NCBI RefSeq assembly: GCF_009914755.1
Contig: NC_060925.1
Origin: the human T2T-CHM13v2.0 reference genome, Homo sapiens
Direction: 5' to 3' (one strand)
DNA length: 64,000 bases
Below the pieces are notes generated by a model. It did not search any database and had not been told where the DNA came from. It saw only the letters and a list, made by a program, of their open reading frames with translations. Of this stretch, positions 7,387-35,967 are shown in pieces; the stretch's first letter is position 1; each line of letters starts with the position of its first letter. The position numbers and the translations under genes are program-made.

Positions 7387-7614
<228 letters not shown>

Positions 7615-34849: not shown

Positions 34850-35226
34850 TTTCATAGTCAGGCGACCCGCCAGCCAGGCCGCCAGGTAGGTGGAAGGGCG
34901 GCTTCGGGAACTAGATCCGGCTGGTTCTCTGCTAACATGTGGTCCTCGATGCTCTAGCGGATTGGCCCCAAACCTCAGCACACAGAGCTTTGGTAGGGCT
35001 GGGGATGCAGGTCAGCCTGCTGAAGGCGTCTAGAGGACTTGGGCGGGGGCGTGACTTCCTGCTGCACCACTTCCTTTCCAGCCACGTGGGCTTCTGGGAC
35101 CCTATGACATAATTTCTGGAGTGGTCTGTTGGGAGTTGTGGCGGCGGCGAGGCCCAAGCACAGCTGGCCAAGGCGGGTGTAAAACGCGGGTCGTGTCCAC
35201 CCCAAAGCTCGACGCCTCTAGAAGCC
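34850..35226 (+). promoter_or_regulatory. CpG/GC-rich promoter-like and 5'-UTR region of the PSME3-like retrocopy
   Basis: Sharp GC/CpG rise against AT-rich flanks. Inverted CCAAT (ATTGG 34961-34965), GC box GGGCGG (35041-35046), ETS-type ACTTCCTG (35054-35061) and CACTTCCT (35068-35075), CACGTG (35083-35088), degenerate ZNF143-type TGGGAGTTGTGG (35130-35141), Kozak gaagccATGG. Confidence 0.6.
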
Positions 35227-35967
35227 ATGGCTTTTCTGCTGAAGCTAGAGCCGGACATGCAGGGGAAAGTAGATTTGTTTCGAGCCCGTATCGCCCAGGA
35301 GGCCGAGGATCTCGTGTCCACCTTCTTTCCTCAGAAGGTCTTGGAGCTGAATAGCCGAGTTCAGGAGCTCCGGCTGCAAGACCTGTCCAGAATCCATTCG
35401 GTGCCAACCTCGGAGCCCCTGGCCACCCCAGGCAACAAGGGAGATGGGCCCAACCAAAATCTGCCAGTTCTGCTGACTCAGTTCTCCATCAAGGTCCCAG
35501 CACTGCTTGGCAGCGAGGGACAGCTTCTGCGGAGCAACCAGCATCTGGTGGAGTTGACTGAGTGGGTGAAACCTGAGATCAAGCTGCTGAGAGAGAAATG
35601 CAACACAGTGCACATGTAGGTGCACCCGCTTATCCTGAAGGTGGAGGACGGCAACAACTTCAGGGTGTCTATCCAGGAAGACACTGTGGACCAGCTGTGG
35701 ACCGTGGATAGCACAGCGGCCTCCTCTCTATGCGGCTTCTCCACCTACTACAACACCCAGGCCAAGTTGGTATCCAAGATAGTGAAGTACCCCCAAGTGG
35801 AAGATTATCGCTGCACTGTAGCAGAGGTCGACGAAAACGAGTACCTGAGTGTGCGCCAGATCCTGCTGCACCTACGGAACGAGTATGCCACCTTGCGTGA
35901 TGTAATCCTTAAAAACATTGAGAAGATCAAGATCCCTCGGAGCACCAACCGTGATAACCTATACTGA
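35227..35967 (+). pseudogene. Intronless PSME3 (PA28gamma/REGgamma)-like retrocopy, 246 codons, single in-frame TAG at 35617-35619
   Basis: ORFs 35227..35619 and 35620..35967 are contiguous and in one frame. Motifs MAxLLK, EAEDLV..FFP.K.LEL, VKPEI.LL.EKCNTV, EDGNNF.VSIQE, AKLVSKI.KYP.VEDYR and ILKNIEKIK.PRS..LY align to PSME3. The TAG replaces Trp139. No introns. Ends TGA TAG. Confidence 0.93.

What the first reader, a model, noticed from the sequence alone, without database searches (positions are those of the whole stretch)
35560..35815. Damaging substitutions in the retrocopy are CpG transitions: a two-phase history
Seen and inferred: at positions conserved in PSME3 the radical changes are each one CpG transition from the expected residue. 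These are P145>L (CTG 35635, from CCG), G154>R (C|AGG 35662, from C|GGG), R166>W (TGG 35698), R186>Q (CAG 35758), A194>V (GTG 35782) and R204>C (TGC 35812). W at 35563 and H at 35611 are likewise one step from Arg where PSME3 has Lys. This suggests a thin recent layer of methylation-driven decay on a formerly functional CpG-rich gene. Reverting these codons and the TAG predicts the ancestral protein, including an intact activation loop (PKVEDGNNFGVSIQE).
Basis: partly seen in the sequence, partly recalled or inferred. Interest (0 to 1): 0.7.

Follow-up and report, generated by a model that had tools for sequence, protein, structure and literature searches.

The report
Dead human copy of PSME3-like retrogene
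This is the broken human copy of an old, intronless PSME3-derived proteasome-activator gene that many other mammals still keep intact, and its decay by CpG mutation is real but ordinary and explains only part of the damage.

Summary
Window 35227-35967 (+) is a 246-codon intronless PSME3 copy with one TAG (35617) and no frameshift.

The two-phase idea is supported. Synonymous sites against the PSME3 coding sequence are saturated (pS 0.80, pN 0.26). Full-length orthologues exist in Aotus, Otolemur and 25 non-primate rows, including a marsupial.

- Confirmed: P137L, G146R, R178Q, R196C, R113W, R129H.
- The TAG comes from Trp and is not a CpG change.
- Refuted: W158 and V186 are old family residues, present in 25/25 and 24/25 non-primate orthologues.

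The CpG claim is selective. Of 45 human-lineage residue changes, 17 are CpG transitions, 23 are single non-CpG steps and 5 need more than one step. A rough neutral model expects about 56%, so there is no excess.

The decay is neither thin nor ape-only. Fifteen changes are shared with Aotus and 9 with Old World monkey-like fragments. Those fragments are themselves broken and equally diverged.

No searched paper describes this gene.

The parts
35227..35967 (+). Intronless PSME3-like pseudogene reading frame (LOC100422526): 246 codons plus TGA
   Evidence: one in-frame TAG and no frameshift; matches PSME3 (7yqd) end to end, E 2e-70. Pfam PA28_N and PA28_C; colinear with the 11 spliced exons of PSME3.
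35617..35619 (+). TAG, the only reading-frame lesion (codon 131, Trp in all orthologues)
   Evidence: W in 25/25 non-primate orthologues, Aotus, Otolemur and P0060. TGG>TAG is a transition outside a CpG.
35635..35679 (+). Activation loop, LKVEDGNNFRVSIQE in human. It carries P137L (35635, CCG>CTG inferred) and G146R (35662, C|GGG>C|AGG inferred).
   Evidence: P and G in 25/25; intact 15-mer in 19 of 27 full-length orthologues. (review passages): loop mutagenesis abolishes activation.
35563..35565 (+). R113W, CGG>TGG inferred, at a position that varies among intact orthologues
   Evidence: R in 21/25; W, H or Q in the other 4, Q in Otolemur and P0060.
35581..35583 (+).
   Evidence: E in 24/25.
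35611..35613 (+). R129H, CGC>CAC inferred
   Evidence: R in 25/25, also in Aotus, Otolemur and P0060.
35731..35733 (+).
   Evidence: R in 25/25; H in Piliocolobus and R in Pygathrix.
35758..35760 (+). R178Q, CGG>CAG inferred
   Evidence: R in 24/25. Q recurs in Eubalaena and Saguinus.
35812..35814 (+). R196C, CGC>TGC; the parent PSME3 codon is also CGC
   Evidence: R in 25/25. C is also seen in Pygathrix and Saguinus, S in Piliocolobus.
35698..35700 (+). W158 (TGG): an old family residue, not decay
   Evidence: W in 25/25 non-primate orthologues, Aotus and Otolemur.
35782..35784 (+). V186 (GTG): an old family residue, not decay
   Evidence: V in 24/25 non-primate orthologues.
35027..35226 (+). 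CpG-rich 200 bases just upstream of the ATG (GC 0.615, CpG o/e 0.69), possibly a remnant of the gene's own 5' region
   Evidence: Function was not tested. No likeness to the PSME3 5' region.
7488..7602 (+). ATF6 exon that opens the host intron; used as the synteny anchor
   Evidence: the Pteropus alecto model P0047 joins the equivalent of this exon (83% identity) directly to a PSME3-like C-terminal part.

Best explanation
LOC100422526 is the dead human copy of an old retrogene. A processed PSME3 (PA28gamma) mRNA was copied into an ATF6 intron before marsupials and placentals split. The copy became a protein-coding gene kept under strong purifying selection, and many genomes annotate it as 'PSME3-like'.

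The intact form keeps the parts of an 11S activator: the PA28_N and PA28_C domains, the activation loop, the Lys equivalent to PSME3 K188, and the C-terminal Tyr. Its linker between helices 1 and 2 is proline-rich and lacks the basic KKRR stretch of PSME3.

In the lineage leading to humans, constraint was lost at about the time of the catarrhine stem. That timing is inferred. The sequence then drifted neutrally inside a transcribed, presumably methylated intron. It gained a W131X stop, two hits in the activation loop, and in all 45 residue changes from the mammalian consensus. Seventeen of these are CpG transitions. That share is what methylated CpG-rich DNA gives without any special process.

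Shown here: the anatomy, the orthologues, the polarity of each residue change, and the counts. Inferred: the ancestral codons (by parsimony from the human codon), methylation, the dates, and the biochemical role of the intact gene.
For: Structure:
- One TAG and no frameshift in 246 codons.
- Colinear with the 11 spliced PSME3 exons, all with AG/GT borders.
- No indel against the orthologues.

Long selection:
- pS 0.80 (saturated) against pN 0.26 versus PSME3. In codons 98-246, 57 of the 96 identical residues use a different codon.
- 27 full-length orthologues.
- 125 of 246 positions invariant in 24 non-primate species.
- Sarcophilus differs from the consensus at 2 of 149 C-terminal positions.

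One origin:
- The PSME3-like clade is separated from seven vertebrate PSME3 sequences at 100/100 support.
- Human groups with P0060 at 99/93, and with Aotus at 100/98.

Synteny: the bat model P0047 joins the ATF6 exon at window 7489-7602 to the PSME3-like frame.

Loss of constraint:
- Human has 16 changes at positions invariant in all non-primate orthologues. Aotus has 3, non-primates 0-6, Otolemur 11.
- The Pfam PA28_C score drops from 201 to 160 bits.

Parallel decay in monkey-like fragments:
- P0060 differs from the consensus at 12 of 51 positions, human at 9, with 1 shared.
- The two colobine models differ at 11 of 95 positions, human at 11, with 2-3 shared.
- P0060 goes out of frame after codon 148, and the colobine models lack the NLY end.

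CpG share: 17 of 45 changes. The neutral model expects about 0.56 of nonsynonymous changes and 0.053 stops per nonsynonymous change.
Against: - No orthologue DNA could be fetched. Ancestral codons and branch-wise dN/dS are therefore inferred, not seen.
- Zero indels in the human copy is slightly low for tens of millions of years of neutral drift. By recalled indel rates I estimate about 1.4 expected, P(0) about 0.25, so it is not a contradiction.
- Otolemur keeps an open frame yet has 11 changes at invariant positions. Fast evolution with the frame kept does occur in primates, so part of the human change could predate true loss of function.
- G146R and R196C, which I use to place decay before the ape/monkey split, are CpG sites. 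R178Q and R196C recur independently in Saguinus, so these could be parallel hits.
- The colobine and P0060 sequences are gene models or unnamed contig ORFs, not curated genes.
- The mutation rates and split dates in the timing argument are recalled, not taken from a call.
- The 56% expectation differs from 17 of 45 at p = 0.016, but not from 17 of 40 single-step changes (p = 0.11). The model is rough.
Confidence: 0.77

Rival explanations
1. One reading: the gene worked until recently and carries only a thin, ape-specific layer of methylation-driven damage. Every radical change is a CpG transition, so reverting those codons and the TAG restores the ancestral protein.
For: - 6 of the 8 named sites and the TAG revert to the residue that orthologues carry.
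- The predicted loop is exact in 19 of 27 orthologues.
- CpG-compatible differences are enriched among lineage changes: 7/20 against 2/67.
- Only one stop and no indel.
Against: - 2 of the 8 sites are ancient.
- 28 of the 45 lineage changes are not CpG transitions. These include Q133H, L134P, E161D, Y167S, R170G and H224R at positions invariant in 25/25.
- 24 of the 45 changes are shared with Aotus or with Old World monkey-like fragments.
- Those fragments are broken too.
- Reverting only the named codons would leave 10 further lineage changes in codons 98-246 alone.
Confidence: 0.1
2. Prolonged relaxed or shifted selection in primates with the frame kept open. The human copy stayed a working, fast-evolving gene until a recent W131X, so most of the 45 changes were fixed in a functional protein.
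For: - Otolemur has an open 247-aa frame despite 11 changes at invariant positions and 19 in the C-terminal part.
- The human copy has no indel.
- Aotus keeps an open frame with 3 such changes.
Against: - Human changes hit the activation loop (P137L, G146R), which is invariant in the orthologues and in PSME1/PSME3.
- The 21 human-only changes and one stop fit the neutral model's rate for roughly 2 million generations (with recalled rates).
- The monkey-like fragments diverged as much and independently, and are broken.
Confidence: 0.12
3. An ordinary dead-on-arrival processed pseudogene of PSME3 that never had a function. The open frame and the CpG pattern are chance.
For: NCBI annotates it simply as a PSME3 pseudogene (hub note). 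No poly-A remnant or UTR likeness is left to examine.
Against: - Saturated synonymous sites together with 58% residue identity (141/243) and one stop.
- Full-length orthologues across therian mammals, nearly invariant in the C-terminal half.
Confidence: 0.01

Closest known systems
PSME3 / PA28gamma / REGgamma (human chr17; solved structure 7yqd)
   Same: The PA28_N and PA28_C domains match end to end. The activation loop, the K188 equivalent and the C-terminal Tyr are kept in the intact orthologues.
   Different: - 58% residue identity (141/243), with saturated synonymous sites.
- Intronless, against 11 exons in the parent.
- A proline-rich helix 1-2 linker without the KKRR stretch.
- 67 fixed family-specific residues, including W158 and V186.
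- The human copy has a stop and loop substitutions.
'Proteasome activator complex subunit 3-like' gene models of other mammals (Aotus, Zalophus, Dugong, Ictidomys, Sarcophilus and others)
   Same: These are orthologues. They are 70-85% identical to the human frame, form one clade with it, and lie in the same ATF6 intron in at least one bat.
   Different: They have open frames and conserved loops. The human copy has W131X and 16 changes at otherwise invariant positions.
Unitary pseudogenes (an established gene lost in the human lineage) and CpG-driven pseudogene decay
   Same: A conserved gene elsewhere with a disabling lesion in human. CpG transitions are over-represented per site, as in methylated mammalian DNA generally.
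   Different: The lost gene is itself an old retrogene, nested in a host gene's intron. The CpG share (17/45) is not above neutral expectation, so it is not diagnostic on its own.
PSME2 processed copies in the human genome (for example the chr5 locus L004)
   Same: An intronless copy of a PA28 family gene.
   Different: The chr5 copy is young and near-identical to PSME2 (497 bits over 239 of 239 residues). The ATF6 copy is ancient, with orthologues across mammals.

Membership tests
PA28 / 11S proteasome activator family (PSME3 branch) | PA28_N and PA28_C domains over the full length | tested here: met
   PF02252 at 159.9 bits and PF02251 at 47.1 bits for the human frame; 201 and 46 bits for the orthologues; 1-246 aligns to 1-254 of 7yqd.
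PA28 / 11S proteasome activator family (PSME3 branch) | Intact activation loop between helices 2 and 3 | tested here: not met
   Human reads LKVEDGNNFRVSIQE, with P137L and G146R at positions that are P and G in 25/25 orthologues. The feature is met in the orthologues, 19 of 27 exactly.
PA28 / 11S proteasome activator family (PSME3 branch) | Free C-terminal Tyr for docking on the 20S alpha ring | tested here: met
   Human ends NLY then TGA. 23 of 27 orthologue models end in Y. The need for the C-terminus is taken from review passages.
PA28 / 11S proteasome activator family (PSME3 branch) | Uninterrupted reading frame giving a full-length subunit | tested here: not met
   TAG at codon 131.
PA28 / 11S proteasome activator family (PSME3 branch) | Heptamer formation and 20S activation | not testable with these tools
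   This needs expression of an intact orthologue. No complex prediction was run.
Processed retrocopy | Lacks all introns of the parent and is colinear with the spliced mRNA | tested here: met
   the 11 PSME3 exons align as one block.
Processed retrocopy | Poly-A tail, target-site duplications, or parental UTR remnants | tested here: not met
   no UTR likeness beyond a 12-base chance match, and no A-run (best 15 A in 25). This is expected at this age and does not argue against retroposition.
Unitary-type pseudogene (loss of an established gene) | Intact, constrained orthologues in other lineages at the same locus | tested here: met
   Synteny was shown for one bat only.
Unitary-type pseudogene (loss of an established gene) | The disabling lesion is fixed in the species | not testable with these tools
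   Only one human haplotype is at hand.
CpG (methylation) decay signature | CpG transitions in excess of a neutral expectation for this sequence | tested here: not met
   17 of 40 single-step changes against 0.56 expected (p = 0.11). The share is high per site but not in excess.
CpG (methylation) decay signature | Ancestral codons carried the CpG | tested here: inconclusive
For 16 of the 17 sites the only one-step path from the orthologue residue to the human codon runs through a CpG codon; codon 113 also allows AGG>TGG. No orthologue DNA could be read.

The most novel reading that the evidence does not exclude
Therian mammals carry a fourth, so far undescribed 11S proteasome activator. It is a PA28gamma-derived retrogene nested in an ATF6 intron, kept almost unchanged for well over 100 million years. 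Its linker has lost the basic stretch of PA28gamma, so it may act outside the nucleus. It has been lost independently in catarrhine primates, including humans. It has probably also been lost in cetaceans, whose models carry a read-through C-terminus. Its loss from humans would help explain why it has not been studied.
Probability: 0.45. Interest if true: 0.65.

Novelty: new member of a known kind. Interest (0 to 1): 0.45.

Why it matters
The CpG observation is textbook pseudogene decay and changes nothing. What the check uncovered matters more.

The human 'PSME3 pseudogene' is not retroposition debris. It is the remains of a strongly conserved PA28gamma-like gene that many mammals still have. 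The main evolutionary survey of proteasome regulators counts three PA28 genes in mammals (passages seen). My searches of the open-access library found no paper on a fourth.

If the gene is functional in other mammals, proteasome regulation in those species differs from that in humans. The human copy also gives a dated natural knockout.

Tried and rejected
- Orthologue DNA: the search for related loci with P0003 found no mammalian locus. In genome contigs the only hit was a weak bacterial one, L010, at 37% over 51 residues. Viral contigs gave none.
- UTR and poly-A remnants: none.
- DNA search of the own genome found only 78 bases of PSME3 exon at 81% identity. I therefore rebuilt the parent coding sequence exon by exon.
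- Jukes-Cantor dS could not be computed because pS exceeds 0.75, so I report pS and pN.
- Literature: 'PSME3'+'retrogene' gave 1 unrelated paper. 'PSME3P1' and 'LOC100422526' had no occurrence in any of the 15 papers listed, out of 413 matching two or more terms. 'PSME3L', 'PSME3-like' and similar gave two insect transcriptome papers only. 'PSME3' or 'PA28' with 'intronless' gave nothing relevant. 'PA28gamma'+'paralog'+'pseudogene' gave 1 plant paper.
- I considered and rejected a never-functional pseudogene (see rivals).
- I considered a structure or complex prediction of an orthologue. I did not run one: at 55% identity to a solved heptamer it would pass by likeness and would not bear on the finding.

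Full report
**What is there.** Window 35227-35967 (+) reads as 246 codons ending in TGA, with a single in-frame TAG at 35617 and no frameshift. With the TAG read as X, the protein aligns end to end with human PSME3 (7yqd, residues 1-254, E 2e-70). It matches PSME1 and PSME2 more weakly. It carries Pfam PA28_N and PA28_C. The window's own genome holds this locus, PSME3 on contig 17, and three PSME1/2-like intronless copies.

**The parent.** I rebuilt the PSME3 coding sequence from contig 17: 11 exons, all flanked by AG/GT, 254 aa. The translation agrees by eye with the 7yqd sequence printed. The window copy is colinear with the spliced exons, so it is a processed copy. Residue identity is 141 of 243 aligned positions and nucleotide identity is 61.6%. 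Synonymous sites are saturated (pS 0.80 overall, 0.82 in codons 98-246). Nonsynonymous difference is 0.26 overall and 0.21 in codons 98-246. Of 96 identical residues in codons 98-246, 57 use a different codon. GC3 is 0.715 against 0.528 in PSME3. The copy has 27 CpGs (o/e 0.50), against o/e 0.19 for the whole window and 12 CpGs in PSME3. The 200 bases upstream have o/e 0.69. A frame this diverged with one stop is not a neutral relic.

**Orthologues.** A protein search found 370 relatives at E <= 1e-10, of which the best 120 were listed. True PSME3 proteins are 49-55% identical to the human frame. A separate set is 70-85% identical and mostly annotated 'proteasome activator complex subunit 3-like':
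- Aotus (85%), Zalophus, Dugong, Ictidomys, Galemys, Neovison, Mustela, Eubalaena
- Sarcophilus (a marsupial, 75%)
- Pteropus, Ctenodactylus, Manis, Suncus, Otolemur, Rousettus, Suricata, Sorex
- several unnamed contig ORFs

I aligned the human frame with 27 full-length members and one PSME3. I left out partial models (P0029-P0034, P0090) and used four primate fragments separately. The human frame has no indel against these orthologues. Among 24 non-primate members (Mirounga dropped for a foreign C-terminus), 125 of 246 positions are invariant. Sarcophilus differs from the consensus at 2 of 149 positions in codons 98-246.

A maximum-likelihood tree was built from 34 rows: the human frame, the full-length orthologues without Mirounga or P0024, the P0060 fragment, and seven vertebrate PSME3 sequences. 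It separates the PSME3-like group from PSME3 at 100/100 support. Human groups with P0060 (99/93) and then with Aotus (100/98).

A Pteropus alecto model named ATF6 (P0047) joins the equivalent of the ATF6 exon at window 7489-7602 directly to a PSME3-like C-terminal part. The bat copy therefore lies downstream of the same exon, on the same strand.

All codons are as stated. Against the 25 non-primate orthologues:

| Human residue | Window position | Orthologue residue | Verdict |
|---|---|---|---|
| L137 | 35635 | P 25/25 | confirmed |
| R146 | 35662 | G 25/25 | confirmed |
| Q178 | 35758 | R 24/25 | confirmed |
| C196 | 35812 | R 25/25 | confirmed |
| W113 | 35563 | R 21/25 | confirmed |
| H129 | 35611 | R 25/25 | confirmed |
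| TAG131 | 35617 | W 25/25 | confirmed, not a CpG change |
| W158 | 35698 | W 25/25 | ancient, reader wrong |
| V186 | 35782 | V 24/25 | ancient, reader wrong |

For five of the six confirmed sites, the only one-step path from the orthologue residue to the human codon runs through a CpG codon. Codon 113 also allows AGG>TGG. TGG>TAG is not a CpG change.

Position 113 also varies among intact orthologues (W, H, Q), so W113 need not be damaging. The predicted loop PKVEDGNNFGVSIQE occurs exactly in 19 of 27 orthologues. The parent's own codons (CCC, TTT|GGG, AGA, AGA, GCT, CGC, AAA, AAA) hold the needed CpG only at R204. The CpGs therefore arose within the GC3-rich retrogene.

**Is the CpG pattern special?** Human differs from the orthologue consensus at 45 of 246 positions. 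Of these, 17 are CpG transitions, 23 are single non-CpG steps, and 5 need more than one step.
- In codons 98-246 the count is 8 CpG transitions of 20 changes.
The 6 non-CpG changes there are W131X, Q133H, L134P, E161D, Y167S and R170G.

I made an approximate ancestor inside a script, with 40 codons reverted and 41 CpGs. Applying per-site rates that I recall from Kong et al. 2012 (not from a call) predicts that 56% of neutral nonsynonymous changes would be CpG transitions. It also predicts 0.053 stops per nonsynonymous change. The observed 17 of 40 single-step changes is not above that (p = 0.11). The CpG share is therefore what any methylated CpG-rich sequence would give. It does not by itself mark a separate phase.

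**Timing.** Of the 45 changes:
- 15 are shared with Aotus (6 CpG);
- 9 are shared with Old World monkey-like fragments but not Aotus (4 CpG). These include L38V and D42N at positions invariant in 25/25, plus G146R and R196C;
- 21 are human-only (7 CpG, 11 single non-CpG, 3 multi-step).

The monkey-like fragments have diverged as much as human over the same positions: 12 against 9 of 51, and 11 against 11 of 95, with only 1-3 changes shared. They are also broken. P0060 leaves the frame after codon 148, and the two colobine models replace the NLY end with read-through sequence.

With the model's nonsynonymous rate (1.1e-5 per generation over the frame), 21 human-only changes need roughly 2 million generations. 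The same span predicts about one stop (one seen). By a recalled indel rate it predicts about 1.4 indels (none seen, P about 0.25). These are my own rough figures. This fits neutral drift since about the ape/monkey split, a date I recall as 25-30 million years. It does not fit a thin or ape-only layer.

Caveats:
- G146R and R196C could be parallel CpG hits. R178Q and R196C recur in Saguinus although Aotus has R.
- Otolemur shows that an open frame can coexist with 11 changes at invariant positions.

**How the intact gene probably works (inferred).** It keeps the four-helix PA28 domains, the activation loop, the Lys matching PSME3 K188, and the C-terminal Tyr. Passages of a 2023 review state that loop mutagenesis abolishes activation and that mutating the C-terminal residues abolishes 20S binding. 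The helix 1-2 linker is proline-rich and lacks the KKRR stretch of PSME3. That this stretch is the PSME3 nuclear signal is my recollection, not a result from a call. In human, W131X removes helices 3-4 and the C-terminus, and P137L and G146R hit the loop. The PA28_C score falls from 201 to 160 bits.

**Known or new.** NCBI annotates the human locus as a PSME3 pseudogene and the other mammals' copies as PSME3-like. In the open-access library I found no paper on it. In Fort et al. 2015 (PMC4453063) I saw only passages. [quoted passage not shown] I did not open its supplements.

**Verdict.** The CpG point is ordinary. The history of the gene is the more interesting result.

Noticed in passing
L004:1468-2187 (own genome, contig 5): An intronless copy of PSME2 with an intact 239-codon frame. 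It matches PSME2 chains over 239 of 239 residues at 497 bits. It looks like a young processed copy whose frame is still open.
   Followed up: partly
P0016, P0030, P0031, P0090 (cetacean models): Cetacean PSME3-like models run past the usual NLY end (NLYRGPFST...). They carry R>W, R>C and R>Q changes at conserved Arg positions, and one (P0090) is frameshifted. This looks like an independent loss, again with CpG-type hits.
   Followed up: no
P0025 (Otolemur): The Otolemur frame is open (247 aa) but has 19 changes in the conserved C-terminal part and 11 at otherwise invariant positions. In codons 105-113 it shares V, D and Q with the monkey-like P0060, but not with human or Aotus. This is unexplained.
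   Followed up: no
window 35027-35226: The 200 bases upstream of the ATG are GC 0.615 with CpG o/e 0.69, in a window of o/e 0.19. Several orthologue models read an open frame through the equivalent region. It may be a remnant of the retrogene's own promoter or 5' UTR.
   Followed up: partly
P0054 (Saguinus) versus P0002 (Aotus): Two New World monkeys differ. Aotus has a full open frame. The Saguinus model skips the loop region and carries R178Q and RR>HC at 195-196. The gene may be decaying in some platyrrhines too.
   Followed up: no
L005 (contig 13) and L006 (contig 10): Two further PA28-like intronless matches at 32-33% identity to the query. One has a TAG and a TAA, the other is partial. 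They are presumably PSME1/2 processed pseudogenes.
   Followed up: no
L010 (bacterial MAG contig): A 51-residue, 37% identity match of the PA28 C-terminal part in a bacterial metagenome-assembled genome. It is most likely chance.
   Followed up: no
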